A stretch of 32,000 nt of DNA from Neisseria flavescens (GCF_001618075.1 NZ_LAEJ01000024.1), one strand, 5' to 3'; counted from the first letter of the stretch, positions 1 through 16,476 are shown. The notes: generated by a model not told the origin, from the letters alone. Translations and numbers: made by a program.

Positions 1-1
1 A

Positions 2-94: not shown

Positions 95-100
95 TTAAAA

Positions 101-130: not shown

Positions 131-153
131 TGTTCTATCTATAAACTTTCTGC

Positions 154-359
154 TTATTTCGGCAATACCAAAAAGCTAATCAGCAATTCTTTAAATACGA
201 ACCCAAACACACCCAAGCCCAAAACCAAGAAGAGCATGGCAATGCCGAATTTGCCGGCTTTGGATTCTTTACCCAAGTTCCAAACGATAAAACCCAAAAG
301 ATAATCAGGCCGGTGAGGAGGATTTTCATTGCCCACGAGGCAAATTCTGCTTCAGACAT
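154..359 (-). CDS. Small predicted two-TM membrane protein; reading frame ambiguous (possible 1-nt frameshift)
   Basis: ATG at 359 follows an AAGGA Shine-Dalgarno and gives MSEAEFASWAMKILLTGLIIFWVLSFGTW..., a clean TM helix. The listed 154..336 ORF is in another frame, starts at GTG without an SD, and has a clean C-terminal TM (FGIAMLFLVLGLGVFGFVF). One extra base near 270-285 would fuse the two parts into a protein of about 68 aa. Confidence 0.3.
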
Positions 360-400
360 TATTTTTTTCCTTTTATTCTTAAGATGTGTGTTTAATTGCT

Positions 401-435
401 TTCAGACGGCCTATTAAAATTTAAGGCCGTCTGAA
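401..435 (-). terminator. DUS inverted pair downstream of metZ
   Basis: TTCAGACGGCCT (401-412) and AGGCCGTCTGAA (424-435) flank an 11-nt AT loop, 14 nt past the metZ stop. Confidence 0.5.
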
Positions 436-448
436 ATTTGTTTTTAGA

Positions 449-1618: not shown

Positions 1619-1760
1619 TTATTCTCCAATCTACTGTATATTCCAATGGACGGAACAATATTTTCCGTCTGTTTAACTTGTTAACATTTTGCGCCGATTT
1701 CTACCATCTTTCAAGCCGAAGGCCGTGTTTCGGGCCGTCTGAAAAACAGGAAAACCGTTT

Positions 1761-2258
1761 TTACTGATAAAGGCGGCCATCGTGTTTCAACCAGCCGTCA
1801 GTATGCCGGCCTGACGGGTCATGGTGCGTCCAATGGATAACGCCACCCTGCTCCGACCATTCGTATTCGCCGTAAAATGCTACTTTATCGCCTTTTTTCA
1901 AACCCTTAATCTTATCGGCAAGGTCGATATTGTGTGCCACCAAAAGCGTCTGGCCGCTGGATAGCTTCAAGATAAAGCGTTGGTGGCGCGTGCCTTTGTT
2001 GTCATCCGGCAGGGTTTTCCATACCGTGCCCTCGCCCTCAACCTGAATATCGCTTTGTTCGTTTTCAAACGCCTGTTTCAAAACCGCTTCGGCTGATTCT
2101 TTGCCCGAACCGATTTGCTGCTGAGCCGTATCGGCATTCTTTTTGCCCGCATTATTTTGTTTTTGAACAGCTTCTATCTTCTGCTGATTCTGCGATTGTA
2201 GCGGCTGCTTGTTTTGCATTTTGTTATAGGCAAATACGGCAACCAGAGCAATCAGCAA
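1761..2258 (-). CDS. DUF3465 domain-containing protein
   Basis: 165-aa ORF with an N-terminal hydrophobic anchor. The C-terminal block FYGEYEWSEQGGVIHWTHHDPSGRHTDGWLKHDGRLY is typical of DUF3465. The listed start is TTG; an out-of-frame ATG at 2281 suggests an N-terminal frameshift (see findings). Confidence 0.75.
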   Translation of the reverse strand: MLIALVAVFAYNKMQNKQPLQSQNQQKIEAVQKQNNAGKKNADTAQQQIGSGKESAEAVLKQAFENEQSDIQVEGEGTVWKTLPDDNKGTRHQRFILKLSSGQTLLVAHNIDLADKIKGLKKGDKVAFYGEYEWSEQGGVIHWTHHDPSGRHTDGWLKHDGRLYQ

Positions 2259-2406
2259 TACAATGATTTTGTTTTATTCATAACAATCTCAAAAAAATGC
2301 CCGATTCTGCATCGGGCATATCAACTATTTAGAAAGGATATTTATCACGAAAACGTGAGCCATTATTATACACGCTTCGTAAAATTTTAAGGGAAATTTA
2401 CACCGA

Positions 2407-2434
2407 AGGCCGTCTGAAACTTTTCAGACGGCCT
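2407..2434 (-). terminator. DUS inverted-repeat hairpin after the 268-aa gene
   Basis: AGGCCGTCTGAA (2407-2418) and TTCAGACGGCCT (2423-2434) lie 7 nt past the stop at 2441. Confidence 0.6.
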
Positions 2435-2440
2435 GGATAC

Positions 2441-3247
2441 TCAACGGCGGTATTTCATTTCAGTCTTCATATCGTCCAAGATACGTTTGACGTTGTGTTC
2501 CAATACATCCTCCACCAAGCCCGGTGCCTGCTCGTTCAGCATTTGCTGCAACTGATAAGTGAACAAGGCCATTTGTTTTTGTACGGCAATCCGAATCATG
2601 CCGTTGACCGCATCGGCCACATGGGGGCGCAAACGTTTAATCAGACGCTCGGTCAAATCTTTTTCAGAAACGCAGAATACTTCCCGACGGCCAATCGCCT
2701 GCGGGTTCAATACATTGATATGGACATTGATGGCCGGTTCTTTTTCAGGTTCAAGGCCGTCTGAAACCGCCCCTTCAGCCGTTTCCGCATCATCATTTTC
2801 CGGTTTTTCAGTTTCTTCCACTTCAGGCATATCAAAATCTACTACACCTGATTTCGGATTCAATCTGACGGTGCGCGTTGATTCGATATGACGCTCTGAA
2901 GCCGCAGCCTGCAACGCTGATTGCGCGCTCAACCAGTTGTCCTGCAAAACCACCATCGCATCGGTTTCCACTGCTTCGCCATCGTCGGTCAAAGCAGTAT
3001 TGTGTTCCAACTGCCAACGGTACAAATACTCTTCCAGCACTTTTTCACGATTGTCTGCATCCAGTTTATATTCTTTTTTAGCCGCGGTTTTGGATGCGGT
3101 ATCGACAGCTTCGTCCGATTTTTTGACCAATGGTGCATGGGTCGGCGCGGTATTGAATTGTCGCGCCTGACGCAATCTTTCCAGGCGTTTTTCCCAATTC
3201 AGGTCTTCTTCCTCGAGGGCTGAGGGGTCAAGACGGTTGTTTTCCAT
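2441..3247 (-). CDS. Hypothetical acidic protein (Glu/Asp-rich centre, helical basic C-terminus)
   Basis: 268-aa ORF, ATG start. All overlapping plus-strand ORFs are shorter with low-complexity translations. No motif recognised. It contains an in-frame DUS at 2754-2765. Confidence 0.6.
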   Translation of the reverse strand: MENNRLDPSALEEEDLNWEKRLERLRQARQFNTAPTHAPLVKKSDEAVDTASKTAAKKEYKLDADNREKVLEEYLYRWQLEHNTALTDDGEAVETDAMVVLQDNWLSAQSALQAAASERHIESTRTVRLNPKSGVVDFDMPEVEETEKPENDDAETAEGAVSDGLEPEKEPAINVHINVLNPQAIGRREVFCVSEKDLTERLIKRLRPHVADAVNGMIRIAVQKQMALFTYQLQQMLNEQAPGLVEDVLEHNVKRILDDMKTEMKYRR

Positions 3248-3409
3248 AATAATCTCGTTTTTTCATTTTTATTGTGAACCGTATTCAAGCCTAAAATCAT
3301 TTGAAATACAGCCGATGGTTGGACATATCCGGCAAGCCGGCGCAAGCGTCACATTTTAATATTAATTCGCTATATAATCACTATTTTATTTAATACTCAA
3401 GGATACATC

Positions 3410-3661
3410 ATGAGCAGCATCGAACAACGCCTCGAATATCTGGAAGAGGCCAACGACGCTTTGCGTATGCAAAACCACGTCCTCGCCACCGCGCTGAAAG
3501 GCCTTATCCGCTCCCTGCCCTCCGACATGGCCAACGATGCCGTAGAATCCATCCAGCTTGCCTTTGAAGACGCGTTGGCGGAATTGAGCTATGAAGACAG
3601 TCCGCACACCGACCTCTTCCATGACGTAACCTACGCATTTTTCCGAGAAAAAGACCACTAA
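3410..3661 (+). CDS. Hypothetical 83-aa helical protein
   Basis: ATG is preceded by AAGGA about 8 nt upstream. The sequence is coiled-coil-like (MSSIEQRLEYLEEANDALRMQN...). The antisense 90-aa ORF lacks an SD and reads as noise. Confidence 0.55.
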   Translation: MSSIEQRLEYLEEANDALRMQNHVLATALKGLIRSLPSDMANDAVESIQLAFEDALAELSYEDSPHTDLFHDVTYAFFREKDH

Positions 3662-3737
3662 TTTCAGCTAGTTTGTTCACAAAATTATGCTAAACTAAGA
3701 TTTTATCCGTTAACATTTTATTAAGAAAGCACATATC

Positions 3738-4541
3738 ATGAACATGAAAAAATGGCTGGCCACTGCCCTCGCTTGTTCCGCCCTTGCCCTGACTGCCTGC
3801 GGCGGTCAAAGCAACAATGCCTCTGCTCCTGCCGATAAAGTGTACCGTGTCGGCTCTAACGCCGAGTTTGCCCCATTTGAATCTTTGGATTCTGCCGGCA
3901 AAGTAGAAGGTTTTGACGTAGATTTGATGAATGCCATGGCCAAAGCCGGCAACTTCAAAGTCGAATTCAAACACCAGCCATGGGAAAGCCTCTTCCCTTC
4001 TCTGAACAACGGCGACGTGGACATCGTTATGTCCGGCGTAACCATCACTGACGACCGCAAACAAAGCATGCTCTTCAGCGATCCATACTTTGAAATTACC
4101 CAAGTTGTCCTCGTTCCAAAAGGCAAAAAAGTGGCTTCTTCCGAAGACCTGAAAAACATGGCCAAAGTCGGCGTGGTAACCGGCTACACCGGGGACTTCT
4201 CCGTTTCCAAACTCTTGGGCAACGACAATCCGAAAATCGCCCGCTTTGAAAGCGTTCCCCTGATTATCAAAGAATTGGAAAACGGCGGTTTGGATTCCGT
4301 CGTCAGCGACAGCGCGGTTATTGCAAACTATGTGAAAAACAACCCGACCAAAGGCCTGGATTTCATCTCCCTGCCTGACTTCACCATCGAAAACTACGGT
4401 ATCGCTGCACGCAAAGGCGACGAAGCAACCATCAAAATGTTGAACGATGCGCTGAAAAAAGTACGCGAAAGTGGCGAATACGACAAAATTTACGCCAAAT
4501 ACTTTGCTAAAGAAGGCGAAAAAACCGAAGCAGCCAAATAA
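3738..4541 (+). CDS. Amino-acid ABC transporter substrate-binding lipoprotein (family 3 SBP)
   Basis: Signal peptide plus lipobox LALTAC|GG. SBP_bac_3 hallmarks: YRVGSNAEFAPFE, GFDVDLMNAMAK, VDIVMSGVTITDDR, SDPYF. No permease or ATPase gene lies adjacent. Confidence 0.85.
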   Translation: MNMKKWLATALACSALALTACGGQSNNASAPADKVYRVGSNAEFAPFESLDSAGKVEGFDVDLMNAMAKAGNFKVEFKHQPWESLFPSLNNGDVDIVMSGVTITDDRKQSMLFSDPYFEITQVVLVPKGKKVASSEDLKNMAKVGVVTGYTGDFSVSKLLGNDNPKIARFESVPLIIKELENGGLDSVVSDSAVIANYVKNNPTKGLDFISLPDFTIENYGIAARKGDEATIKMLNDALKKVRESGEYDKIYAKYFAKEGEKTEAAK

Positions 4542-4564
4542 TCCGGTTTGACTTCTTAAACTAA

Positions 4565-4593
4565 AGGCCGTCTGAAAAGTTTTCAGACGGCCT
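4565..4593 (+). terminator. DUS inverted-repeat hairpin
   Basis: AGGCCGTCTGAA (4565-4576) and TTCAGACGGCCT (4582-4593), just after the stop at 4541. Confidence 0.6.
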
Positions 4594-4670
4594 TTAATCT
4601 GGTTAACGCCATTAAACGCAAGCGTCCCCTATAATCCACTTGTTTTTATCCTTCAAATGAAAGACACGCC

Positions 4671-4910
4671 ATGCTCAAACCCATCATCCTCAGTCTCGCT
4701 GCCGCAACCGCTTTGGCCGCCTGCTCCGCTTCTGAAAAACCAGAATCTCCTAACGTCGGCGCAGCCAATCCGGCTTCCGAGTTCTGCGTCAAACAAGGCG
4801 GCAAATCCGAAATCAAAAAAGATAAAGACGGTAGCGAATACGGCGTGTGCCACTTGCCTGATGGTAAAGTCGTTGAAGAATGGGAATATTTCCGTCAACA
4901 CAACAAATAA
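4671..4910 (+). CDS. DUF333 domain lipoprotein (putative hemolysin-like, COG3042)
   Basis: 79 aa with lipobox LAAC|S. NPASEFCVKQGGK...GVCHLPDGKVVEEWEYFR matches the DUF333 Cys-containing pattern. Confidence 0.75.
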   Translation: MLKPIILSLAAATALAACSASEKPESPNVGAANPASEFCVKQGGKSEIKKDKDGSEYGVCHLPDGKVVEEWEYFRQHNK

Positions 4911-4927
4911 TTGCCCAATCATATAAA

Positions 4928-4958
4928 AGGCCGTCTGAACCCAAGTTTCAGACGGCCT
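4928..4958. terminator. DUS inverted-repeat hairpin between convergent DUF333 gene and serS
   Basis: AGGCCGTCTGAA (4928-4939) and TTCAGACGGCCT (4947-4958). Confidence 0.6.
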
Positions 4959-4974
4959 TTTATTTAAACAGCGA

Positions 4975-6282
<1,308 letters not shown>

Positions 6283-6352
6283 TTAAGATTCAGAATGGCA
6301 TTATTGTAAACCAATTTAAAGATATTTTCACAGCGACAGGCCGTCTGAAAAC

Positions 6353-6386
6353 AAAAAACGCCCCTGCAAAAGCAGGAGCGTTTTTT
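6353..6386 (-). terminator. Rho-independent terminator; apparently the original tRNA-Glu terminator, now ending the island operon
   Basis: Stem CGCCCCTGC (6359-6367) / GCAGGAGCG (6372-6380) with one mismatch, flanked by A6 and T6. On the minus strand it lies directly 3' of the tRNA 3'-end remnant at 6395-6412. Confidence 0.6.
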
Positions 6387-6394
6387 AAGAATTT

Positions 6395-6412
6395 TGGCAC
6401 GCCCACGAGGAT
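6395..6412 (-). repeat. Distal direct repeat (att-like): duplicate of the tRNA-Glu 3' end
   Basis: TGGCACGCCCACGAGGAT here versus TGGCACGCCCACGGGGAT at 15368-15385, a 17/18 match. Read on the minus strand it is ...GTGGGCGTGCCA, i.e. T-stem, acceptor and CCA. Confidence 0.7.
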
Positions 6413-6433
6413 AACTATCGGCACACAAAATAC

Positions 6434-7258
6434 TTACTGGTAGTTCAAATGTTGTTTCAATTTAGCTTCCTCAAGCCATCGTAAAGCATGATGACGGTCC
6501 AGTTCTTCTCGCTCCACATTGCTATCACTACCCGCCAAGCAATGCTGACAAACGCTACCACAATCAGCTGGGCAATTCAAACGGTCTAAAGCACGACTTA
6601 TGATACCGTTGATGTCATCTACAGCAGATAAAACGAAACCTGCGCCCCCTTCGGCTTTATCGTAAATCTGAATCAAACAGCGAACGGAACCTGTTTCCAA
6701 ATCTCTATCTGCTCGCACGGCATAGCCCATTTCAGTAGTTTCTATACCCAAAAAAGCAGCAATTTCATCGCGTACAGCAACGGCAATCGTGCGGGCGGTA
6801 GTTTTATCTCCACTACCTAGCCATGCCTTGGTTTGTGGATTTTTCAGAGCAATCTCCAATACATCGGTTGAGATATGATGGCCCAGATGGATATTGATCT
6901 GAACATTACTATTAGGACAATCTTTACTATTACTGCTAAGATCCAAACCGCCACCCAAGGTTTTATGATACTCACCCAAAAATACATTAGGCAGTTCACC
7001 TGCTTCAGTCATGGAATCAGCCCTACCGCATCTCATGCAAACAGCAAAACCTTTTTCATGCTTGCCACTAGAGCGAAACAGTACTCTACCGTCACTACCA
7101 TATCTAATTTCACCACACTCATGTTTTAGAAAGGCTACAGTTTCATCATCCAATTGTACTCTAGGAGGCTGGATAGGAACGAATGTTTGATAGGAAACAT
7201 CGTTGCTACTTTTTTCAAAAAAGTCAGTCAAAAAACCTGTTGGGTTAGTACCGTACAT
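6434..7258 (-). CDS. Helicase fragment 3: C-terminal part of the DUF1998-like zinc domain
   Basis: 274 aa with CMRCGRAD and the terminal CPADCGSVCQHCL cluster typical of DUF1998 ends. It overlaps fragment 2 by 31 nt in another frame and has no SD of its own. Confidence 0.7.
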   Translation of the reverse strand: MYGTNPTGFLTDFFEKSSNDVSYQTFVPIQPPRVQLDDETVAFLKHECGEIRYGSDGRVLFRSSGKHEKGFAVCMRCGRADSMTEAGELPNVFLGEYHKTLGGGLDLSSNSKDCPNSNVQINIHLGHHISTDVLEIALKNPQTKAWLGSGDKTTARTIAVAVRDEIAAFLGIETTEMGYAVRADRDLETGSVRCLIQIYDKAEGGAGFVLSAVDDINGIISRALDRLNCPADCGSVCQHCLAGSDSNVEREELDRHHALRWLEEAKLKQHLNYQ

Positions 7259-10176
7259 TGTTCATCAAAAGGAATATTTTCACCGCAGTGAGAACATTGG
7301 ATATCATTACAGCTATATTTGTAACGCGTCACGCCAGATGTACCGCAGTTTTTACAGCGCCACGCAGTATCGAAGCGTTGGTCTTCGTTTTTGCCTCGTT
7401 CATCCGATTTTACCCGTAGATTGATGCCAGCAGAACGGTATACGCGCCCATCTAATACAACATCCGAACCAGGTGCGTATTCACGCAGTGCAATATCCAA
7501 ACTACGACTTGGGTTTTCTTTGCGGATGAACAGATTATCTTCTCGCTCCTCTCGTTCACGGCGTAAGTCTTCCATTTTACGGATTTTCATTTCTACTATG
7601 CCAGTAGGGAAACCATAACCAGGTAGAAATGCGTTTACCGCCAGATAGCCAAGCAGGTTCTCATTTTCATGTAGTTGTTTCTCGCGATTTAAGGCTTTCT
7701 TGTATGAATCGTTGCTAGTTTGCTTAATTTTATGATTGATATTGTGAAAATCAGCCTGCCAATTCTCTGCCAACTCCAGCAGCCGCTGTTTAGCACTTGC
7801 TTTGATACGTGTCAATGGTACTCCTCCCAAAGCAGTACCTGCCGCCAGTTTACCCAAAGCTTGGTCAATAGTAGAGCATTCTGGTGAGTTCATCCAGTCG
7901 CAAAACTGCTGCCAAACAGATTGGGTTGGATTGAAAAACCAAGCAGTATTCAGCTTAGTACGGTCTTTGCCTGTATCGCTGCGCTTGGCAAGAAATGCTG
8001 CCAATAAGAGAGAATGCATATGGCGGCTGACGATTTTTTCAGAGCTTAACGATACTTTCGGAGCAGCAATAGCAGTAGTGAACGCCCATTTTGGATTGGT
8101 AAATACACGGCGATTATGAGGATCATTTTTGCATAGTGTATAAGCTATTGCAGCTGCTTCGCTACGACGGCCTGCACGACCGGCACGTTGCAGGTAATTA
8201 GCAGGGTGTGGTGGTACATTATTCATTACCACTGCTGCCATACCGCCAATATCCACACCCATTTCCATGGTAGTAGAGCAACTCAATACATTAATTTTCC
8301 CTTCTTTGAACATCTGTTCGTATCTGTTTAATTGTGTAGATGCAATTTGTGCTGAATGTTCCGCCGCACGATAGTAGAAACCTCCTTCAATGATTTTATC
8401 GTTCAAATTGCTCCACAAACCTTCTTGGCGCAAGTGGCCTACATCTTTATCTTGCTTCAGCAAACGACGCATTTGGCTACGACGAGATTCAGCAGTGGCA
8501 TCCTGTTTGAAACGATAATAATCTGGAATCTCAGTTTTGCTGCAAAATAGTTTTTCAGACGGCATTTCCTGCCAGTTACCAGGCAAATAAGGAGACACAC
8601 CGCGCAAAGTAGTGTCGATCAGGCGGTGACTTTGCGGACACAGCCACATTTCTTTTTCAGGTAACTTAAACGCTATTGCTGAAAGCGGCATTTTCCAAGT
8701 ATCATTATCGGGATGCAGGATATTGCTATCAGTAGTCAATTGTTTCCACGCAGTTTGCAGCCACGAATTAATTTTGTGTTTAGCCAAAGGGTTTTGAATA
8801 TCAAGACCTGTAACCGCCTGCAAAATTTTGACTGCTCGAGGCTGTTGGCCTTTATCTCGAACTTGCGGCCAAGCCCGTTTGCGCAAAGTTTGCTTTTCTC
8901 TGGTATCGGGCGACAGCAGGGATTTTCCCGAAAAGCGTTTGCCTAACCATCGTTTTTTCTGCTCATCTAAATTGGTAAAGGAATTTTCACGGACATGAAA
9001 ATCCAAAATCATTTTTAAAAATGCTTTCCAATCATCCAAATCCAGCGGCTTGCTTGGATTGTCTGCCTGATTTAAAACACGTGTCTCTACCCAACCATCA
9101 GGCACTGTGCTGATTTTATCCAGACCAGGATAACAAATCATTGTCAAACCTAAAGTTTCCAAACTATTGGCATTTCTTGGGCGTCTGATAAATTCGCGTG
9201 CCAGTAGCAACTCTGCCAGCTTTTCTGCTCCGTTGCCACTAGGGTCATTAAACATACTGGGATTAGTTTCTCGATTGTAAGGCAGTAAATCTTGCGTCAT
9301 TTCAGCTTTGTCGCGCAGTGTACGGTACATATCATCCCAAGTGAGGTAGGCTTTTTTGTCACTTTTTTGTGCTTTACTTTTTGCTACTTCCAACAACATT
9401 TCCGCCAAAGTGGGATCGGTTTGTTTCAATTGTTCGATTTTTGCTGCCATTTCAGGCATTAGGACGTTATTAACAGTTTTTTCAGTTTCCTGCACCAATA
9501 CATCAAATACCATACCACGCAGTTTGGAATACTCTGCTTCCTGCTGCATTTTTACCGCCATTCTCGCTGTGCCTTGACGGCTGTCAGTAAAAGTAATCAA
9601 ACGCCGTCCACGAGCAGGTAACGATTGCGGATCATTTTCAGCATCACTACAAAATTCCAATACGGTCGGAACAGCGTGGGTTACATAAAACGGTGCACCC
9701 AAATATTGTCCACGATAAAACGGCATTCTTTGGTTTTCTTTGCCGCAGGCGGAACAGCAGGCATGCGGGGAGTAATCCAAAGCCAACTCAAAAGCTTTAC
9801 CTTGCTGTACGCCGATTTGCGCAGTTTCTTTATCGATTTTTTGTACCGTATAGTTTTCAGACTGCATATCGACTGGGGCTGCAAGCACTTTATTGCGGGA
9901 TATGAATTGTAGACCATCTGAAATTGAGTTTACGTCATCACCACTGTCTTCTTCATCATTGGCTGCAGGCTCAGGATTGAGTGCAAACTCATCGGTGATA
10001 TAGGTATCACACTGCTGCAAAATACCGTTATGCTCCTGCGCCATCAAGTGCGAGGTACCACAATCTTGGCACAACACTAATTCATACACAGGAGCACCAC
10101 AATCACATTTAGTTCTGCGGTTAAGATAAACCTGCCCAAATAGCCAGTCTTTAAGGTAACCTTCTTTTTGCTGCAA
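7228..10176 (-). CDS. Helicase fragment 2: Zn-ribbon, RecA2 lobe with large insertion, start of DUF1998-like domain
   Basis: 982 aa. The listed start is TTG with no SD. Contains ITFTDSRQGTAR, STTMEMGVDIGG, QRAGRAGRR (8164-8190), then FLPGYGFPTG, LREYAPGSDVVLDGRVY and WRCKNCG...CSHCG. Confidence 0.8.
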   Translation of the reverse strand: MQQKEGYLKDWLFGQVYLNRRTKCDCGAPVYELVLCQDCGTSHLMAQEHNGILQQCDTYITDEFALNPEPAANDEEDSGDDVNSISDGLQFISRNKVLAAPVDMQSENYTVQKIDKETAQIGVQQGKAFELALDYSPHACCSACGKENQRMPFYRGQYLGAPFYVTHAVPTVLEFCSDAENDPQSLPARGRRLITFTDSRQGTARMAVKMQQEAEYSKLRGMVFDVLVQETEKTVNNVLMPEMAAKIEQLKQTDPTLAEMLLEVAKSKAQKSDKKAYLTWDDMYRTLRDKAEMTQDLLPYNRETNPSMFNDPSGNGAEKLAELLLAREFIRRPRNANSLETLGLTMICYPGLDKISTVPDGWVETRVLNQADNPSKPLDLDDWKAFLKMILDFHVRENSFTNLDEQKKRWLGKRFSGKSLLSPDTREKQTLRKRAWPQVRDKGQQPRAVKILQAVTGLDIQNPLAKHKINSWLQTAWKQLTTDSNILHPDNDTWKMPLSAIAFKLPEKEMWLCPQSHRLIDTTLRGVSPYLPGNWQEMPSEKLFCSKTEIPDYYRFKQDATAESRRSQMRRLLKQDKDVGHLRQEGLWSNLNDKIIEGGFYYRAAEHSAQIASTQLNRYEQMFKEGKINVLSCSTTMEMGVDIGGMAAVVMNNVPPHPANYLQRAGRAGRRSEAAAIAYTLCKNDPHNRRVFTNPKWAFTTAIAAPKVSLSSEKIVSRHMHSLLLAAFLAKRSDTGKDRTKLNTAWFFNPTQSVWQQFCDWMNSPECSTIDQALGKLAAGTALGGVPLTRIKASAKQRLLELAENWQADFHNINHKIKQTSNDSYKKALNREKQLHENENLLGYLAVNAFLPGYGFPTGIVEMKIRKMEDLRREREEREDNLFIRKENPSRSLDIALREYAPGSDVVLDGRVYRSAGINLRVKSDERGKNEDQRFDTAWRCKNCGTSGVTRYKYSCNDIQCSHCGENIPFDEQCTVLTQQVF

Positions 10177-11519
10177 TGACGGTCAGCACACGCCCATAAC
10201 CCGTGCAGCATTGATTGAAATAAATGCAAACGCAGTTTTAAAAATGGTTCAGCATTTTCAGACGGCTTTGTCTGAGTCATAACATCCAGCCAGTCTAAAA
10301 CTTCACGCTGCTGTTCATAAAGGCTATCAGAAAGCAAATATGCTTGCGTTGCCTGTATCAATTGGTTCAGCGTGTAAGGTTGGGTATTGGCTGTCAGACA
10401 ATTACGCAGGGTTGTGGCTATTACACTTTGACAAAGGGCTGCAAAGCGTTCGGTTTCGTCCTTAATAGATGTGATATCTGCGAGGCTCTGTCTACCATCG
10501 GCAACACTAATCGGCAAAAAGTCGCGGCTTCCAGAAACTACTAGGACCTGTTCCTTTGGTACCCCAGCCAAATCAGCAAGATAGCAGCGAAGTTCCTCTG
10601 CTGCTTTGTCGGAAGCAATGGTGGCAGATGTAGCAACAAAGCGTATGTCCTCGGGCTTTTTGCCGAAAGCGTGTACTACACGGCGTAATAACAGTGCAAT
10701 TTCTGCCGCCTGCGATCCGATATAACTATGTGCCTCGTCTAATACTATCCAGCGCAATGAACCTGTTTGGCGTGATTTTTCCAAAATAGGGGCATCTACT
10801 TGGCGCACCAGCATATATTCCAACATAGTGGCATTAGTAAGTAGGATAGGCGGAGGTTCTTTACGTAGCAATTCCCGTGACAAGATTTGGTTGGGCCGGT
10901 CTTTGTCACGTGGTTCAGCACTTTCTTTTGTGTTACCGTTGTAAAGACAAAAGCGGATTTTGTTACCAAAAGGTTTCGTCCATGCATCCAAACGTTCCTT
11001 TTGAGAATTGATTAAAGCATTAAGTGGGTAGAGAAACAGAGCCTGAACACCGATAAGCGCTGTTTTTTCTAACGTTTGGCGACGTATCAGATCTTCCAAT
11101 ATCGGAATCATAAAACATTCAGTTTTACCTGATCCTGTACCACTGGTAATGATGGCAGATTTTGGATCATCCTCCAGAAGGTGCTTCCATACCTGCAACT
11201 GATGGGTATAGGGGCGGGCAGTTTTGGGAAAACCATATCTGTCTGCATCTGCCAACACATCTGTAAGTTTTGTAGAAAACAGGTTTTGTCTTACCAAATC
11301 TGCAAAGGTGCAGTCCGCACTTTTCCAACCAAAGGTATGTTCAACGACAGGGGCAGCGAGAAAACAGTTTTCATTACCCAATTCATTGCTAATCAATTGT
11401 CGCAGGTGACTACGCAATTTATTATCTGTAATATCCAATACGCCAATAGTAGCTTCCTTGATACGGTTCAGACTTTGCTCTATCAATCCGGAAAGAGTTT
11501 GCGTGGTATCGGTATTCAT
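10077..11519 (-). CDS. Helicase fragment 1: N-terminal region plus RecA1 lobe (DEAH box)
   Basis: 480 aa. Walker A GTGSGKT (11121-11141), DEAH (10728-10739), TSAT. The last ~29 residues (KKVTLKTGYLGRFILTAELNVIVVLLCMN) are out-of-frame read-through. Confidence 0.8.
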   Translation of the reverse strand: MNTDTTQTLSGLIEQSLNRIKEATIGVLDITDNKLRSHLRQLISNELGNENCFLAAPVVEHTFGWKSADCTFADLVRQNLFSTKLTDVLADADRYGFPKTARPYTHQLQVWKHLLEDDPKSAIITSGTGSGKTECFMIPILEDLIRRQTLEKTALIGVQALFLYPLNALINSQKERLDAWTKPFGNKIRFCLYNGNTKESAEPRDKDRPNQILSRELLRKEPPPILLTNATMLEYMLVRQVDAPILEKSRQTGSLRWIVLDEAHSYIGSQAAEIALLLRRVVHAFGKKPEDIRFVATSATIASDKAAEELRCYLADLAGVPKEQVLVVSGSRDFLPISVADGRQSLADITSIKDETERFAALCQSVIATTLRNCLTANTQPYTLNQLIQATQAYLLSDSLYEQQREVLDWLDVMTQTKPSENAEPFLKLRLHLFQSMLHGLWACADRHCSKKKVTLKTGYLGRFILTAELNVIVVLLCMN

Positions 11520-14500
11520 TATGATTCACTCACTAGGTAGCAGCTCAGGGAAGCGCAGACGTAATCAAACCATTCTGCATCCAAAGCGTAAATACGATAA
11601 AAAGCATCAGCAAACTGTGCAGCAGTCATTTCTAATGGCATGATATCTGAAGGCTGCGCATTGCCGGCTTTAACACAGGCAGTAAATACTGGTAGCCAGA
11701 CAACTGCACGATCAAAAGGAATTTTGGACAGACAGCGTACTTTATTGAAAAATACATCCTGTTGTTTTTCCAACCATTTTTGCAGACCATCTGAAAGCGT
11801 TTCAGGAATGCGTTGGTTGTTATTCTGACGCAATGCATTGTAATGGCGGTTATAACGTGAATCGTGCTTCTTGTCGAAAATTTCCCCAAGCGTTTTTTCC
11901 ACCACTATCATTTCTATTTCTGAAAGAAATCCTTTAAATACATGATTGCGTAAAATCTCGTCATGGCACAACACGCTTGTAGGAATACAGTTTTCAGGCA
12001 GGGGGAAATCATCAGGATTCAAGCCTTGAGCTACAATTTTGGTACGAATGTATGGTTTGTACGCACTTATGGCAGCAAACCAATCTTGTAGAGCCAACCA
12101 CTCCCATACCACAGCCAATTCGTTACGCATCCGCTCGCAAAATACACCATCCAACCTTAAGCGTAATACCGCCAAAGCCAAGGCTTTGGGCTGTTGTACC
12201 AAGGCTTTCCATGTTTCAAATACTGACAATGGCAGATGAGAAAAATGCTGCTTCAGGCTCTCAAAATACGACCAACCAGAATGCTCAGGATTACCCACCA
12301 TTTCTGTAATGATACGGCTAATAGCTTCGGGATTGTGGTCCGGATGGAAGGCGCGTGCAGCAATATGCAGGGAATTATGTTGAAATGGTTCGATAAATTT
12401 TTCACTGCTGTTGTCAAATATAGCTGGACGAAATTGAACTGGTGATTCAGGCGCAGGGTAAATCAACCACAATCCTTCATCATATTGCTCGGACGACAGT
12501 TGATAATGCCCATTTATCCTCATTGCGCTTTCAAGCAACCTTTGTGCACCTTTTTCAGGTGCATCCAAGCGCATGATGTTTACTACTGCTTCTCGGCAAG
12601 TCAATTCGTCTTCTGCCTGCCGTTTGATGACGAAACTTTTTCGTAATGCATCTGTTACTGCCAGAATACCGAAACGGTAAAACTGATTATTCCACATAAC
12701 TAGACCATTATAACGAGACAAGATAAGCCGTATCAAAGGGTTCTCTGAGCCCATATGGCACACAGTAATTTCTACCTGGGCATCTTGACTACTGCTGCAC
12801 GATAAAAGCTGCAAAAGTTGCGGTTTCCATTGATCTAAGAAAAACTGCTGTACCGAACCATCTGCTGACAAACGTTCGCTGATAGAAATGGGGCGACCAT
12901 GCACATTATCCGATAATTTAAATACCAGCCTCATATCGGTCGATGCGGAGGAATATACCATTATCCACTTGCCTAGCAACTGATTAATATTTAGACGGCA
13001 ATCATCAATTCTACCTTTTTCATCATATAGATACGCACCATCAAACGGTAGAGGTAGTCTTAATCGTGCAGCTTGAATAGGGTTACTTCCAACTGCAAGA
13101 ATAATATGAGATGGATAATTACTGTCCTCAGCTTGGCAGATAAATCTAAATCGGGAATGGATTTGTGTGATATCTAAATGCTTGGCAAAGACATCTATGA
13201 AAACCTTTTCGGAAGTATCAACATTTAAAATGGCGGGATCTTTGTCGCTTGCCGCTTGCCAAGTATAGGAAAAATCTTCAGGCAGAACAGTAATTTTACG
13301 CCGCAACAAACAAATTGCGCCCTTATAGAAAGCCACCTGAAATGTACCATAATAGCTCGGGCAGATATTTGATTGGACCTCACCGTTGATTTTGATGTGC
13401 GTCGGAGATAAGTCAGGGGGTGTTAGCAGAGTAGGAAAACCACGATACACAGGTAAACCATCAGTATTTTGGCAGTGATAAAACAGTCTCCCGTGCAAAA
13501 TACTCTGTTCTGTCAGACTAGCTTGTACAACAACTATTTCTCGCCCATCCTCATGATGAGCAGTCAATCCATCCGAACACTTAAACCACTGCCTGCCCAA
13601 ATAGGAAACATTTTCATCTTCAGACAACCTAAAACCGTCTGGTAGATGAATCAAAATATCTCTATCTTTACTGCGCGTGTATTCATTAGTAGAGAACAGT
13701 TGCCAACGTTGATCTTGAGCAGGGTGAAACACCAGCGGTGCATCTTCATCAAATCCAGTATCTCCAAACAACTTGGTATAGAGCAGCCGCCCGCCAGCAA
13801 ACACTCGCACAGACAAAGGCAGACTAGGTTTCTCTCGGACAAAATCAAGCTGTTTCCCAAAAGGAAGTTTGAATGTTAGCTCTCCGCCTGTATCACTAAG
13901 AGAAGCAAATACTGTTGCTCCCATTTGGGCAACTGGCTCTTCCCCTTCAAAAATTTGCCATTGTAAAACCGTTTTACCCTGATAATTCTGAATAGGGAAA
14001 CTAAATTTTTCAGGTAACCCGATTTTAGCATGCAAGCACCAACTTTCCTCCTTTACATAATGCCGACAGGAGAACTCTTGCTTTTCCACTTTTTGACGTT
14101 CGTCTGCTGCATTACCCAACCAGCGGTTGATAACTGCATCCACCTGATTACCATCCAAAGCAAAAGGAAACTCACTGCGCCAACCACTATCTGCCTGATC
14201 TAGGTATTCGACCAAATTGCGTTTATTCTTCAAGTCAAACCGTTCAGCGAGCTTGACTAGCGCTCTGACTGTATCCGCAAATAGAACAACAGCTGCAGTA
14301 TCACGAAATACTTGTGCTAGTCTATACACTCTTTCAGCAATATATTCTTCTAAAGGGCGGAAAGTTTCCATACTCTCCTGATATTTTTTCAAGCCATAAT
14401 CAATAATATTGCGAATAGCATTATCATCAGCTGCAAGCATTTTCAGTGGTAATCCACCTTCAGCAATTAATGTACCAAGATAACGCGTATTTTTAGCAGC

Positions 14501-14866
14501 GTCATATTTCCATTCTCGCCGCCAATATGCCAACCCTTTTTTCAAATATTTGTAACGCTGCTGTTCATTATCAAATTGCGTACCTATTGCATTATCGAAA
14601 AATGCCCAACTCCATTCACCACCCGAATACTCGCGCCGATAAGTTTCACTCACTGCCAGACAGTAACAGGCACACCATTCGTCCTGATAAGAAGAACCCG
14701 ATATCAAAAAAGGCTTACGACAAAACAGCGCACACAGTTCACGGTATTCATTTTCATTAACTGCATAAGTATACAGTGGCCTACCATTCGGAATAGGATT
14801 AAGTGGATCACGATTAAAAAAGAAATGTGATAACCAACTCTTAAACGGGTTCGCAAGATTTTTCAT
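11519..14866 (-). CDS. 1115-aa protein of unknown function; DruH-like partner (STY4851/ECs_5259-type family, named from memory)
   Basis: Uninterrupted 3.3-kb ORF, and only short noise ORFs overlap it. Rich in aromatic residues (W/F/Y). I see no P-loop, nuclease, methylase or helicase motif. Its stop overlaps the helicase start (TAATG). Confidence 0.8.
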   Translation of the reverse strand: MKNLANPFKSWLSHFFFNRDPLNPIPNGRPLYTYAVNENEYRELCALFCRKPFLISGSSYQDEWCACYCLAVSETYRREYSGGEWSWAFFDNAIGTQFDNEQQRYKYLKKGLAYWRREWKYDAAKNTRYLGTLIAEGGLPLKMLAADDNAIRNIIDYGLKKYQESMETFRPLEEYIAERVYRLAQVFRDTAAVVLFADTVRALVKLAERFDLKNKRNLVEYLDQADSGWRSEFPFALDGNQVDAVINRWLGNAADERQKVEKQEFSCRHYVKEESWCLHAKIGLPEKFSFPIQNYQGKTVLQWQIFEGEEPVAQMGATVFASLSDTGGELTFKLPFGKQLDFVREKPSLPLSVRVFAGGRLLYTKLFGDTGFDEDAPLVFHPAQDQRWQLFSTNEYTRSKDRDILIHLPDGFRLSEDENVSYLGRQWFKCSDGLTAHHEDGREIVVVQASLTEQSILHGRLFYHCQNTDGLPVYRGFPTLLTPPDLSPTHIKINGEVQSNICPSYYGTFQVAFYKGAICLLRRKITVLPEDFSYTWQAASDKDPAILNVDTSEKVFIDVFAKHLDITQIHSRFRFICQAEDSNYPSHIILAVGSNPIQAARLRLPLPFDGAYLYDEKGRIDDCRLNINQLLGKWIMVYSSASTDMRLVFKLSDNVHGRPISISERLSADGSVQQFFLDQWKPQLLQLLSCSSSQDAQVEITVCHMGSENPLIRLILSRYNGLVMWNNQFYRFGILAVTDALRKSFVIKRQAEDELTCREAVVNIMRLDAPEKGAQRLLESAMRINGHYQLSSEQYDEGLWLIYPAPESPVQFRPAIFDNSSEKFIEPFQHNSLHIAARAFHPDHNPEAISRIITEMVGNPEHSGWSYFESLKQHFSHLPLSVFETWKALVQQPKALALAVLRLRLDGVFCERMRNELAVVWEWLALQDWFAAISAYKPYIRTKIVAQGLNPDDFPLPENCIPTSVLCHDEILRNHVFKGFLSEIEMIVVEKTLGEIFDKKHDSRYNRHYNALRQNNNQRIPETLSDGLQKWLEKQQDVFFNKVRCLSKIPFDRAVVWLPVFTACVKAGNAQPSDIMPLEMTAAQFADAFYRIYALDAEWFDYVCASLSCYLVSES

Positions 14867-14896
14867 AATAGAAATCGGCAGTTGACTTAAACCGAA

Positions 14897-14905
14897 ATTA
14901 TATCA
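14897..14905 (-). promoter_or_regulatory. Candidate extended -10 promoter for the island operon
   Basis: The minus strand reads TGATATAAT (TGnTATAAT) about 30 nt upstream of the ATG at 14866. No good -35 element. Confidence 0.3.
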
Positions 14906-15320
14906 GCATATAAAAAACATTTGGATTTTAAGTGCAGTGCCTAGACCAATCTTACAAACCTAATATAAAAACAGCATATCAGACGCCTACAACCCAAAAA
15001 CTTACAGATAGGCTTATTAAATATACACTTCCTCAATGGATTTTATAGAAGGGAAATTAATCTATTCTTTTTCAGTGCTTTCAACATGATTTTCGTTTTC
15101 ACGATTTCTTCCCCTATTTATCTTCTAAGTTTAATAACCATCAATTACATCAATGAGACACTCTTTTGCCTTTTCTGAATGATGGTACTCATCCACCAGT
15201 CATCGATACATTATTTTTAGTTAATGTAGAACACCCAGAAATGTCGAATAGGCCGAGTATTTTGCTCCTAGCCCACGTTTACAGTAGAGTTTAAAGATGT
15301 ACAAGCAGTACCATAGTGAC

Positions 15321-15357
15321 AAAAAAATAAACCCTTACTATTTTTTAGTAAGGGTTT
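15321..15357 (-). terminator. Rho-independent terminator immediately 3' of tRNA-Glu (island side)
   Basis: 12-bp stem AAACCCTTACTA (15329-15340) / TAGTAAGGGTTT (15346-15357) with a T5 loop, followed on the minus strand by ATTTTTTT. Confidence 0.65.
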
Positions 15358-15367
15358 ATTCAAAATA

Positions 15368-15385
15368 TGGCACGCCCACGGGGAT
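15368..15385 (-). repeat. Proximal direct repeat (att-like) inside the tRNA-Glu 3' end
   Basis: 17/18 match to 6395-6412. Confidence 0.7.
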
Positions 15386-15443
15386 TCGAACCCCGGTTGC
15401 CGCCGTGAAAGGGCAGTGTCCTAGGCCTCTAGACGATGGGCGC
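15368..15443 (-). tRNA. tRNA-Glu (anticodon UUC)
   Basis: The minus strand reads GCGCCCATCGTCTAGAGGCCTAGGACACTGCCCTTTCACGGCGGCAACCGGGGTTCGAATCCCCGTGGGCGTGCCA, 76 nt. It folds as a cloverleaf with anticodon loop CTTTCAC, T-loop TTCGAAT and an encoded CCA, and aligns closely with E. coli tRNA-Glu. The first acceptor pair is a G1-U72 wobble. Confidence 0.93.
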
Positions 15444-15458
15444 GTAACCGAAGCGCGA

Positions 15459-15487
15459 ACTATACAGAAAGCCTTTTCTTCTGTCAA
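15459..15487 (-). promoter_or_regulatory. Sigma-70 promoter of tRNA-Glu
   Basis: The minus strand reads TTGACA, a 17-nt spacer, then TATAGT, followed by a GC-rich discriminator (TCGCGC). It ends about 15 nt upstream of the tRNA 5' end. Confidence 0.55.
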
Positions 15488-15576
15488 CGCCTTTACTGCA
15501 TTTTTAAAGATGCTGCCGATTTCCGTATGTTATTTTCCCTGTATAATGCCGGTTTTAATAAAAAGGAAAACTCGCC

Positions 15577-16476
15577 ATGTGGTTTAAGCAAATCAGTTTT
15601 TATCCGCTCAACAAAGACAAGTTGCCCGAATTGGAAGTCCTTGCCGATAAATTGGCGCAATCCGAATTTGCCCATTGTCAGGGTTTGGACTGGTTTAGCG
15701 AAGGCTTTGCCACGCCGGTTTCCTTTTCGCCCGAGCTGGTTTTCCCTGCCGATTACACTTGGCGCGTTGCCCTGAAAAAAGAAGAAAAAGTCCTGCCTGC
15801 CGGCGTGATCCGCGATATTTTGGATGAAAAGGTTTTGGAAATCCAAAACAATGAAGCGCGCAATGTCGGCCATAAAGAAAAACAAGAGCTGAAAGAACAG
15901 ATTACTGACGACCTGCTGCCCCGTGCCTTTACGCGCAGCAGCCGCACACAGGCGATTTTCGACACGCGCCACGGGTATCTTTTGATCAACAATGCCGCCT
16001 CTGCCAAAGCGGAAAACATCCTGACCAAACTGCGCGAAGCCTTAGGCGGTTTGGAAGCAGCCCTGCCCAACACCAAACAATCGCCCTCTTCCCTGATGAC
16101 CAGCTGGCTGCTGCAAGGCCATTGCGAAGGTGGTTTTGAATTGGACAGCGATTGCGAACTCAAAGGCGTAGGCGATGTTGTTCCGGTCGTCAAAGTTTCC
16201 AAACAAGACTTGACCGCCGATGAAGTGGTACAACACGTCAAAAATGGCAAAACCGTTACCCAACTTGGCTTGGTATGGCGCGAACAAATCGCGTTCATCC
16301 TCACCCAAGACTTTACGCTCAAACGCATCCAGTATCTGGACGTGTTGCAAGAAGAAGCCGAAAGCAACGGCGACGATGCTGCCAGCCTCGCCTTTGCCTC
16401 GCAAATCCTGATGACTGAAGCCATCAGCACCATGTTAGAAGAACTGGTTTCTTATTTGGGCGGCTGGCAAGAGTAA
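15577..16476 (+). CDS. rdgC: Recombination-associated protein RdgC
   Basis: 299 aa. The N-terminus MWFKQISFYPL... and the overall length are typical of RdgC. Two long antisense ORFs are artefacts. Confidence 0.9.
   Translation: MWFKQISFYPLNKDKLPELEVLADKLAQSEFAHCQGLDWFSEGFATPVSFSPELVFPADYTWRVALKKEEKVLPAGVIRDILDEKVLEIQNNEARNVGHKEKQELKEQITDDLLPRAFTRSSRTQAIFDTRHGYLLINNAASAKAENILTKLREALGGLEAALPNTKQSPSSLMTSWLLQGHCEGGFELDSDCELKGVGDVVPVVKVSKQDLTADEVVQHVKNGKTVTQLGLVWREQIAFILTQDFTLKRIQYLDVLQEEAESNGDDAASLAFASQILMTEAISTMLEELVSYLGGWQE

What the first reader, a model, noticed from the sequence alone, without database searches (positions are those of the whole stretch)
6395..15385. Integrase-less 9 kb islet inserted into the 3' end of tRNA-Glu, with the original terminator displaced
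Seen in the sequence:
- TGGCACGCCCACG[A/G]GGAT occurs at 6395-6412 and at 15368-15385 (17/18 identical), in direct orientation. The second copy is the true 3' end of tRNA-Glu.
- Immediately 3' (minus-strand sense) of the distal copy sit a hairpin plus T-tract terminator (6353-6386) and a DUS (6338-6349). These look like the ancestral downstream context of the tRNA.
- The intact tRNA now uses a different terminator (15321-15357).
- The 8955 nt between the repeats look somewhat more AT-rich by eye and are DUS-poor.
- No integrase, excisionase or transposase ORF is present.

Inference: this is a site-specific insertion at a tRNA attB whose mobility genes were later lost, or a cassette now spread by transformation and homologous recombination.
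Basis: partly seen in the sequence, partly recalled or inferred. Interest (0 to 1): 0.7.

Follow-up and report, generated by a model that had tools for sequence, protein, structure and literature searches.

The report
Integrase-less Druantia defence islet in tRNA-Glu
A 9-kb block carrying a two-gene anti-phage system (Druantia type III) sits in the 3' end of a Neisseria tRNA-Glu gene, at an attachment site that related temperate phages also use; it has no integrase of its own and now seems to spread by ordinary recombination, which makes it a clear example of a known kind of island.

Summary
The 18-mer occurs only at 6395-6412 and 15368-15385. The second copy is the 3' end of tRNA-Glu(UUC). 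Ten public contigs from the same species group are empty sites in which the left flank (DUS plus terminator) joins the tRNA exactly at the 18-mer.

The 8,973-bp insert is AT-richer than its flanks, differs in tetranucleotide composition and is DUS-poor. It holds only druH and druE, a Druantia type III defence system whose DruE is compact and lacks the C-terminal extension where published type III-A DruE proteins carry their PLD domains.

The 18-mer is a genuine phage att core:
- Phage contigs carry it in attP next to a ~337-aa tyrosine integrase.
- One 40-kb prophage occupies this same serS/tRNA-Glu/rdgC site between the same repeats.
- A diverged Druantia island beside another tRNA-Glu still has an integrase of this family.

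The islet is far less diverged than its flanking core genes (druE dS 0.04; serS 0.34), which points to recent spread by homologous recombination.

The three-way split of druE in this window is probably homopolymer sequencing error, because all 12 other complete copies are intact.

Verdict: a real feature, and a new member of a known kind.

The parts
15368..15443 (-). tRNA-Glu (anticodon UUC), intact. Its last 18 nt form the tRNA-proximal att core.
   Evidence: ARAGORN; Rfam RF00005, 54 bits. The sequence is identical in empty-site loci.
15368..15385 (-). Proximal direct repeat (attL-type core). Read in tRNA orientation it is ATCCCCGTGGGCGTGCCA.
   Evidence: The same 18-mer is present in phage attP (L044 9764-9781; L056) and at both ends of prophage L048/L051.
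6395..6412 (-). Distal direct repeat (attR-type relic), ATCCTCGTGGGCGTGCCA, 17/18 identical to the tRNA end. It is followed by the ancestral sequence that lay downstream of the tRNA.
   Evidence: In L019 the relic has two mismatches (ATACTCG...), consistent with an unselected copy.
6353..6386 (-). Ancestral tRNA-Glu terminator hairpin with T-runs on both sides. It is now displaced 9 kb and lies just downstream of druE.
   Evidence: Sequence and terminator scan. In ten empty-site loci it directly abuts the tRNA 3' end.
6338..6349 (+). AG-type DNA uptake sequence (AGGCCGTCTGAA). It belongs to the chromosomal flank, not to the islet.
   Evidence: present in all empty-site loci.
15321..15361 (-). 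Terminator hairpin brought in by the islet (AATAAACCCTTACTA / TAGTAAGGGTTTATT plus a T-run). It now ends the tRNA-Glu transcript.
   Evidence: It is absent from empty sites. It is homologous (~87%) to the first 47 bp after the tRNA-Glu in the integrase-bearing islands L035 and L030 and to the sequence after the prophage attR in L059. Phage attP L044 and the N. musculi prophage L046 carry analogous hairpins right after the core.
14867..15320 (-). Non-coding leader of the islet. Positions 14980-15320 (341 bp) are specific to this islet type. Positions 14867-14979 are shared with the L035-type island and contain a possible extended -10 element (TGATATAAT, 14905-14897).
   Evidence: Homology limits. 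No integrase vestige by blastx or blastn, and no plasmid match. The promoter is read from the sequence only and is an inference.
11519..14866 (-). druH (1115 aa), intact.
   Evidence: PADLOC DruH3, E = 1.4e-172, full length. NCBIfam YjiT_fam, 563 bits against a cut-off of 150. dN/dS is 0.21 among islet copies.
6434..11519 (-). druE, a YprA/MrfA-type SF2 helicase with a Zn-binding MZB domain. It is the compact form, 1695 aa when intact, with no C-terminal extension. In this window it is split into three ORFs (10077-11519, 7228-10176, 6434-7258) by two 1-nt deletions.
   Evidence: The three pieces match PADLOC DruE3 profile positions 3-455, 456-1413 and 1413-1680 of 2055. Pfam finds DEAD, Helicase_C and MZB. 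It is a single 1684-1695-aa ORF in 12 other copies.
10160..10168 (-). Frameshift 1: the run is A5 here (coding strand) and A6 in every other copy.
7238..7244 (-). Frameshift 2: the run is C3 here (coding strand) and C4 in every other copy.
15459..15487 (-). Sigma-70-like promoter of tRNA-Glu (TTGACA, 17-nt spacer, TATAGT). It is chromosomal and unaffected by the insertion.
   Evidence: 11 of 12 consensus matches.

Best explanation
The block 6395-15367 is an immobilised genomic islet. An integrative element inserted by tyrosine-integrase recombination between its attP and the attB formed by the last ~18-20 nt of tRNA-Glu(UUC).

As usual for this kind of site, the element carried its own copy of the tRNA 3' end and its own terminator hairpin. 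The tRNA therefore stayed intact, while the original 3' fragment, terminator and DUS were pushed 9 kb away.

The cargo is a compact Druantia type III anti-phage system, druH plus a druE that lacks the C-terminal extension. By homology, DruE is a 3'-to-5' helicase that engages phage single-stranded DNA intermediates, and DruH is its partner and probable sensor.

The recombination module (int and a possible excisionase-like HTH gene) is not present. The islet is now fixed at this locus. It moves between strains of a naturally competent commensal Neisseria as a passenger of homologous recombination in the flanking core DNA.

Shown here:
- the att repeats and the empty site
- phage use of the same core at the same locus
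- an integrase-bearing relative of the islet
- the identity of the cargo
- the lower divergence of the islet relative to its flanks

Inferred:
- that this islet's own ancestor carried an integrase
- that transformation is the vehicle of spread
- that the system is active in defence
For: 1. Exact empty sites: ten contigs join the left flank to the tRNA at the 18-mer.

2. All four att forms of a phage family that uses this core were recovered.
- attP without a tRNA: L044 and L056, with the core followed by a hairpin and then int.
- attL and attR of a 40.5-kb prophage. Its ends match window 15368-16476 (96.5%) and 6277-6412 (97.8%).
- attB: the empty sites.
- An N. musculi prophage with a 58%-identical integrase lies directly after rdgC and tRNA-Glu.

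3. A related island, with about 79% nucleotide identity over druH and druE, sits right after another tRNA-Glu in L035 and L030.
- It carries a 340-aa tyrosine integrase (Pfam Phage_integrase, E = 1e-21) and a weak HTH_17 gene.
- It shares with the window islet the 47-bp hairpin segment after the tRNA and the druH upstream region.

4. The composition is foreign: GC 42.6% against 47.9%, a tetranucleotide shift, and 2 DUS against 35.

5. The cargo is identified by PADLOC, NCBIfam and Pfam. dN/dS of 0.17-0.21 among islet copies indicates purifying selection.

6. Evidence for spread by recombination:
- The islet is 99.9-100% identical in L001-L008, while the far-left flank is 94.8-99.9% identical and rdgC 97.3-97.8%.
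- Between L001 and L031, druE dS is 0.040 against 0.339 for serS, 0.125 for rdgC and 0.116 for the binding-protein gene at 3738-4541.
- The window itself is a mosaic. It is identical to L007 up to 15620, and from there it matches the empty-site haplotype at 99.8%.

7. The literature already describes Druantia III as cargo of tRNA-integrated elements bounded by 16-20-nt direct repeats, some of them immobilised (PMC12458937, section 11).
Against: - No vestige of an integrase gene is detectable in the islet. The 341 bp next to the hairpin has no homologue in the integrase-bearing island.
- The integrase-bearing relative is old (dS about 1.0) and sits at a different tRNA-Glu in a different genus. 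It is therefore a cousin, not the direct ancestor.
- I could not find the distal att repeat of that relative.
- L001-L008 were selected for an identical SerS protein, which inflates the apparent haplotype sharing near serS.
- Transformation itself is not observed. It is inferred from competence-associated DUS density and from the mosaic pattern.
Confidence: 0.8

Rival explanations
1. The islet is still mobile in trans. It would be an integrase-less cis-mobilisable or satellite-like element whose two att cores are recombined by the integrase of a co-resident tRNA-Glu phage of the L044/L048 family, so that it can excise and perhaps be packaged or transferred.
For: - Both cores are essentially intact (18/18 and 17/18) and match the core in phage attP.
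- Phages of that family infect the same species group and use the same site.
- Tandem arrangements of a prophage followed by a remnant of an L035-type element exist (L058/L059).
Against: - The predicted excision junction was not found in metagenome or viral contigs.
- Only 21 nt separate the druE stop codon from the distal core, and the proximal side shares only the hairpin with integrase-bearing relatives. Arm-type binding sites, which lambda-, P2- and HP1-type integrases normally need (general knowledge), are therefore probably missing.
- Every copy whose context was recovered lies at this tRNA-Glu beside rdgC, and wherever both ends were recovered it sits between serS and rdgC with the same junctions.
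- The distal core is decaying in L019.
Confidence: 0.1
2. The islet is what remains of a full temperate prophage that carried druHE as a moron near attR. The phage genes, including int, were later deleted.
For: - The same site hosts a 40-kb prophage.
- Phages of this family carry accessory genes (hicAB, a methylase) next to attP on the attR side.
- The element-borne hairpin directly after the core is a shared design feature.
Against: - Neither end of the islet resembles the arms of the phages found. The hairpin and the distal 21 nt differ from them, and blast finds only the core.
- The closest relative with an integrase (L035/L030) is a small island with no phage structural genes in the about 18 kb examined.
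Confidence: 0.08
3. The repeat is a coincidence or an assembly artefact, and the block is ordinary core DNA.
For: None beyond the short length of the repeat.
Against: - No chance occurrence of the 18-mer in 100 shuffles.
- Exact presence/absence polymorphism at the repeat in independent assemblies.
- Foreign composition.
Confidence: 0.01

Closest known systems
tRNA-integrated defence-island mobile elements carrying Druantia type III, including 'immobilised' copies (PMC12458937, section 11 and Figure 5)
   Same: - Druantia III is the cargo.
- The element is bounded by a 16-20-nt direct repeat, one copy being the 3' end of a tRNA gene, with up to one mismatch.
- Immobilised versions lack a working integrase.
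   Different: - The host here is Neisseria, not E. coli, and the target is tRNA-Glu rather than tRNA-Phe or tRNA-Leu.
- The islet is minimal: two genes, with no Zorya or ARMADA partners, no Rep, no AlpA and no moron module.
- No integrase fragment survives.
- DruE lacks the C-terminal extension.
Druantia type III (DruH-DruE), compact III-B-like architecture (10.64898/2026.05.13.724758; PMC13192584)
   Same: - The gene order is druH then druE, with a 1-nt overlap between the two genes.
- DruE has the DEAD/DEAH helicase, Helicase_C and MrfA Zn-binding domains.
- DruH belongs to the YjiT / STY4851 family.
   Different: - DruE stops about 30 residues after the MZB domain, at PADLOC profile position 1680 of 2055. 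It therefore lacks the region where the two PLD domains of type III-A proteins lie.
- In sequence, however, it is closest (about 85% amino-acid identity) to a 2063-aa DruE that has a C-terminal extension (L035).
- I did not place it on the published III-A / III-B tree.
Neisseria minimal mobile elements (Saunders and Snyder 2002; cited in PMC1538595)
   Same: - Different cassettes, or none, lie between the same conserved flanking genes in different strains.
- The block has no mobility genes of its own.
- Spread is by transformation and homologous recombination.
   Different: This block carries clear att-type direct repeats, so its first insertion was site-specific rather than anonymous.
Cis-mobilisable elements (CIMEs) derived from integrative elements (my own recollection of the Streptococcus thermophilus work; not checked here)
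   Same: Flanked by attL- and attR-type sites and devoid of recombination genes.
   Different: Trans-mobilisation is untested here, and the missing arm regions and missing excision junction make it unlikely.
HP1/P2-size (~337 aa) temperate-phage tyrosine integrases that target tRNA 3' ends (the resemblance to HP1 and P2 is from memory; only length and Pfam family were tested)
   Same: - The phages found here carry 336-340-aa Phage_integrase proteins.
- The int gene lies about 200 bp from a core identical to a tRNA 3' end.
- A terminator hairpin follows the core.
   Different: The islet has no such gene. Membership of the integrases in the HP1/P2 subfamily was not tested.

Membership tests
Druantia type III defence system | Adjacent druH and druE genes in one operon | tested here: met
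   PADLOC DruH3, E = 1.4e-172, full length. The DruE3 profile is covered from position 3 to 1680 by the three ORF pieces. The genes overlap by 1 nt. NCBIfam YjiT_fam scores 563 bits against a cut-off of 150.
Druantia type III defence system | DruE has an SF2 helicase core plus an MrfA-type Zn-binding (DUF1998/MZB) domain | tested here: met
   Pfam DEAD 87.5 bits, Helicase_C 45.6 bits and MZB 38.5 bits, all above their cut-offs.
Druantia type III-A | Two C-terminal PLD-like domains on DruE | tested here: not met
   The protein ends at residue 1695, about 30 residues after MZB, at PADLOC profile position 1680 of 2055. The relatives L020 and L035 continue for about 370 more residues. The published architecture is described in PMC13192584 and 10.64898/2026.05.13.724758. 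Pfam itself does not detect PLD domains even in the long relative, so the absence is inferred from length and alignment.
Druantia type III defence system | Confers protection against phage | not testable with these tools
   The only support is indirect: purifying selection (dN/dS 0.17-0.21) and intact ORFs in 12 of 12 other copies.
tRNA-targeted integrative genomic island | Direct repeats at both ends, one of them being the 3' end of a tRNA gene | tested here: met
tRNA-targeted integrative genomic island | Presence/absence polymorphism, with an empty site that reconstitutes attB | tested here: met
   Ten empty-site loci.
tRNA-targeted integrative genomic island | Encodes its own integrase next to the tRNA | tested here: not met
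   No integrase ORF, no tblastn hit and no vestige. A diverged relative does have one.
tRNA-targeted integrative genomic island | The repeat is a functional recombination core for a known integrase family | tested here: met
   attP, attL, attR and attB of a phage family all carry the same 18-mer. This is comparative evidence, not biochemical.
Neisseria minimal mobile element | Alternative cassettes between conserved flanking genes, no mobility genes, exchange by homologous recombination | tested here: met
   Three states exist at serS/tRNA-Glu/rdgC: empty, islet and prophage. The islet's dS is 3-8 times lower than that of the flanks.
Cis-mobilisable element (CIME) | Excision or integration in trans by the integrase of a related element | tested here: inconclusive
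   The predicted excision junction is absent from metagenome and viral contigs.

The most novel reading that the evidence does not exclude
The islet could be a minimal 'att-only' hitchhiker: a two-gene defence cassette that kept just the two cores of a phage attachment site. Whenever a tRNA-Glu phage of the L044/L048 family infects or is induced, the phage's integrase would then excise and move the cassette. That would be an anti-phage system mobilised by the recombinase of the phages that share its integration site.
Probability: 0.08. Interest if true: 0.55.

Novelty: new member of a known kind. Interest (0 to 1): 0.3.

Why it matters
The locus is an unusually complete natural example. Public data hold the same tRNA-Glu site in three states: empty, occupied by a two-gene defence islet, and occupied by a 40-kb prophage. 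The free phage attP is also available. The origin of an integrase-less defence islet can therefore be read directly rather than guessed.

It also shows a compact Druantia III, with a DruE that lacks the C-terminal extension, kept under purifying selection in human oral Neisseria. This bears on the recent report that the PLD domains of DruE were dispensable in experiments with an E. coli III-A system.

For annotation, it gives a practical warning. The apparent druE pseudogene in this window is most likely a homopolymer sequencing error.

None of this changes current understanding of how defence islands arise.

Tried and rejected
1. Excision junction. I searched for the pattern GATAGTTATMCYCGTGGGCGTGCCATATTTTGAA (islet right end, core, islet left end) in metagenome and viral contigs. 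There were no matches.

2. Integrase vestige. blastx and sensitive blastn of 14867-15367 against all proteins and DNA of the L035 module found only the hairpin and the druH upstream region. A search against plasmids found nothing.

3. Truncation at a pseudo-core. I considered whether DruE was truncated by integrase action at a pseudo-core inside druE, because MAFFT seemed to align the long relative's coding sequence right up to the core. A shuffle test showed no significance: 1782 of 2000 shuffles scored at least as high. Homology effectively ends near 6428.

4. Phase variation of druE. The tracts are only A5/A6 and C3/C4. The window differs from L007 over 15.6 kb by five single-base homopolymer deletions and no substitutions. 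Two of these hit two other genes, DUF2788 and DUF3465, and a third lies near the DUF3465 start. Sequencing error is the better reading.

5. Species-representative genomes. The scan with a DruH alignment returned only one locus, an uncultured Neisseria MAG. Distribution across named species could therefore not be assessed.

6. Distal att repeat of the integrase-bearing island L035. It was not found within the DNA held. That island appears to end near L035 22574, without a recognisable core copy.

7. Native Neisseria origin of the element-borne hairpin. The native terminator of the second tRNA-Glu (the tRNA-Arg/tRNA-Glu pair) in Neisseria is a different hairpin, so the AAACCCTTACT hairpin is not native Neisseria sequence.

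Full report
**Observation.** ARAGORN finds a single tRNA in the window, tRNA-Glu(ttc), at 15368-15443 on the minus strand; Rfam confirms it. The pattern TGGCACGCCCACGRGGAT occurs exactly twice, at 6395-6412 and 15368-15385. None is expected by chance, even with two mismatches allowed. The start-to-start spacing is 8,973 bp.

To the left of the distal copy lie a hairpin with T-runs on both sides (6353-6386) and an AG-type DUS (6338-6349). Directly 3' of the intact tRNA lies a different hairpin with 15-bp perfect arms and a T-run. The coordinates and descriptions in the finding are correct.

**Composition.** The insert has 42.6% GC against 47.9% in the rest of the window (1-kb windows, Mann-Whitney p = 3e-4). 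Its tetranucleotide profile lies 0.29-0.32 from the flank profile, whereas flank windows lie 0.14-0.20 from it. It holds 2 of the 37 ten-mer DUS where about 10 would be expected (p = 0.0014). Of the 37 DUS, 31 are of the AG dialect. From memory of the published DUS dialects, together with the oral-metagenome sources of the related contigs, this points to a commensal Neisseria. The only hit among species-representative genomes is an uncultured Neisseria MAG.

**Cargo.** The insert holds one operon on the minus strand.
- The 1115-aa ORF at 11519-14866 is DruH (PADLOC E = 1.4e-172, full length; NCBIfam YjiT_fam 563 bits against a cut-off of 150).
- The three following ORFs (10077-11519, 7228-10176, 6434-7258) match consecutive parts of one DruE3 profile, at positions 3-455, 456-1413 and 1413-1680. 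They carry the DEAD, Helicase_C and MrfA Zn-binding domains.
- Nothing else in the insert has a family hit. There is no integrase, excisionase or transposase.

The block is therefore a two-gene Druantia type III defence islet.

**The split of druE is probably not biological.** In eight contigs that encode the identical SerS, and in four further loci, druE is a single ORF of 1684-1695 aa. The window lacks one base at 10164 (A5 instead of A6 on the coding strand) and one at 7241 (C3 instead of C4), relative to every other copy examined.

Over positions 1-15620 the window differs from contig L007 by five single-base homopolymer deletions and no substitutions. Of the other three deletions, two break two unrelated genes, DUF2788 and DUF3465, and the third lies close to the DUF3465 start. 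Deletions only, always in homopolymers, with no substitutions, is the signature of sequencing or assembly error rather than of pseudogene formation or phase variation. I rate error at roughly 85%.

**Empty sites.** A look-up of the exact RdgC protein returned ten contigs in which serS and rdgC are 333 bp apart. In these contigs the window's left flank (DUS, hairpin, TTTTTTAAGAATTT) runs straight into TGGCACGCCCACGGGGATTCGAACC of the tRNA. BLAST alignments of these loci to the window stop at 6412 and resume at 15368, sharing the 18-mer.

**The 18-mer is a working phage att core.**
- *Integrase-bearing relative.* A diverged version of the islet (about 79% nucleotide identity over druH and druE; dS about 1) was found in metagenome contigs. 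In L035 and L030 it lies immediately after a different tRNA-Glu, the one in a tRNA-Arg/tRNA-Glu pair. There it is preceded by a 340-aa tyrosine integrase (Pfam Phage_integrase, E = 1e-21), a small gene with a weak HTH_17 match (E = 0.004, below Pfam's cut-off) and a metallophosphoesterase. The first 47 bp after that tRNA, a terminator hairpin, are homologous to window 15367-15321, and homology resumes 113 bp upstream of druH.
- *Phage relatives of the integrase.* Homologues at 58-66% identity are phage integrases. Contig L044 is a phage genome in which the stretch between hicA and int contains the exact 18-mer, with no tRNA, followed by a hairpin; this is an attP. A Neisseria musculi prophage lies directly after rdgC and tRNA-Glu.
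- *Scan of viral contigs for the 18-mer.* This returned a second attP (L056) and two prophages with both ends. One of them, UViG_3300009363_000200 (40.5 kb), has one end matching window 15368-16476 (96.5%), with int next to the tRNA. Its other end is the 18-mer followed by window 6412-6277 (97.8%).

The serS/tRNA-Glu/rdgC site therefore exists in three states: empty, 9-kb islet and 40-kb prophage. All are delimited by the same core.

**How the islet spreads now.** Every copy whose context was recovered lies at this tRNA-Glu beside rdgC. Wherever both ends were recovered, it sits between serS and rdgC with the same junctions.
- Among L001-L008 the islet is 99.9-100% identical to the window, while DNA further left is 94.8-99.9% identical and rdgC 97.3-97.8%.
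- Between L001 and L031, synonymous divergence is 0.040 in druE. It is 0.339 in serS, 0.125 in rdgC and 0.116 in the binding-protein gene at 3738-4541.
- The window is itself a mosaic. It is identical to islet-bearing L007 up to 15620, and from there it matches the empty-site haplotype at 99.8%.
- The predicted excision junction was not found in metagenome or viral contigs.
- Only 21 nt separate the druE stop codon from the distal core.
- In L019 the distal core has acquired a second mismatch.

Together these results fit an element that can no longer excise and that travels with flanking DNA by homologous recombination in a DUS-rich, presumably competent host. One caveat is that L001-L008 were chosen through an identical SerS, which biases the picture near serS. 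The L031 comparison is free of that bias.

**The DruE architecture.** Intact DruE here is 1695 aa and ends about 30 residues after the Zn-binding domain, at PADLOC profile position 1680 of 2055. The L035 and L020 relatives, about 85% identical in protein over the shared 1690 residues, continue for about 370 more residues.

Recent papers place two PLD-like domains at the C-terminus of type III-A DruE. They describe a compact III-B subtype without them, and they report that the PLD domains were dispensable in an E. coli III-A system. The Neisseria protein therefore has a III-B-like architecture, although I did not place it on the published tree. A more distant homologue, L021 (53% identity), ends at the same point, so this is a natural domain boundary. 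dN/dS of 0.17-0.21 among islet copies indicates that the compact system is maintained by selection.

**Comparison with what is known.** PMC12458937 (section 11 and Figure 5) already describes Druantia III as cargo of prophage-like elements integrated into tRNA genes. These elements are bounded by 16-20-nt direct repeats that may differ by one mismatch, and some copies are immobilised. The Neisseria literature describes cassettes exchanged between conserved flanking genes as minimal mobile elements. The present islet combines the two: it entered site-specifically and now behaves like a minimal mobile element. It is a new member of a known kind.

**Verdict.** Interest is modest. The value lies in how completely the origin can be documented, and in the naturally compact DruE, not in any new principle.

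Noticed in passing
window 295, 2271, 2290, 7241, 10164: Relative to the otherwise identical contig L007 (no substitutions over 1-15620), the window has five single-base deletions, all in homopolymers. Besides druE, they disrupt a DUF2788 gene (154-359) and the start of a DUF3465 gene (about 1761-2320). This suggests an assembly with homopolymer errors, so other apparent frameshifts in this genome should be treated with caution.
   Followed up: yes
window 23845-25336: A 1.5-kb segment encoding a DnaJ-like (CbpA-type) protein and a MerR_2 (CbpM-type) protein is absent from the otherwise collinear contig L011. Both edges coincide with inverted DUS pairs (23812/23831 and 25341/25357). This is a second presence/absence cassette in the window, here without att-type repeats.
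   Followed up: partly
window 15386-15620: A recombination breakpoint lies just right of the islet. The window matches islet-bearing L007 perfectly up to 15620. It then carries the rdgC haplotype of the empty-site contigs (99.8% identity), whereas the other islet-bearing contigs differ by 2.2-2.7% in rdgC.
   Followed up: yes
L035 4307-22574 (also L030, L024-L029): A larger Druantia island lies after a tRNA-Arg/tRNA-Glu pair. Its genes, in order, are: a tyrosine integrase, a small gene with a weak HTH_17 match, a metallophosphoesterase, an IS (rve; in L035 only), druH, a 2063-aa druE, a 201-aa ORF, a DUF4365 protein and a 369-aa ORF. Its flanks carry AGGCTACCTGAA repeats, which I recall as the Eikenella DUS dialect. 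No distal att repeat was found.
   Followed up: partly
L058/L059 (IMGVR_UViG_2744054922_000001): The attR core of a 45-kb prophage is followed by the same AAACCCTTACT hairpin. About 200 bp that resemble the region upstream of int in L035 come next, and then GC-rich chromosomal genes with no integrase. This looks like another integrase-less remnant of the L035-type element, with a prophage integrated in tandem in front of it.
   Followed up: partly
window 8554-8563 and 10257-10266: The only two DUS inside the islet lie within druE coding sequence, both across a Pro-Ser-Glu (CCG TCT GAA) motif. They are polymorphic among islet copies and relatives (for example ATACCGTCTGAA in L019 and L031, and AAACCGTCTGAA in L035). 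They may be coding by-products rather than acquired uptake signals.
   Followed up: partly
L001 18682-18845 (outside the window, about 2.4 kb left of position 1): The same genome region has a second tRNA-Glu in a tRNA-Arg/tRNA-Glu pair. Its 3' end (TTCCCCGTGGGCGTGCCA) differs from the 18-mer at only one position. It may be a second potential attachment site, and it is empty in all Neisseria contigs examined.
   Followed up: no
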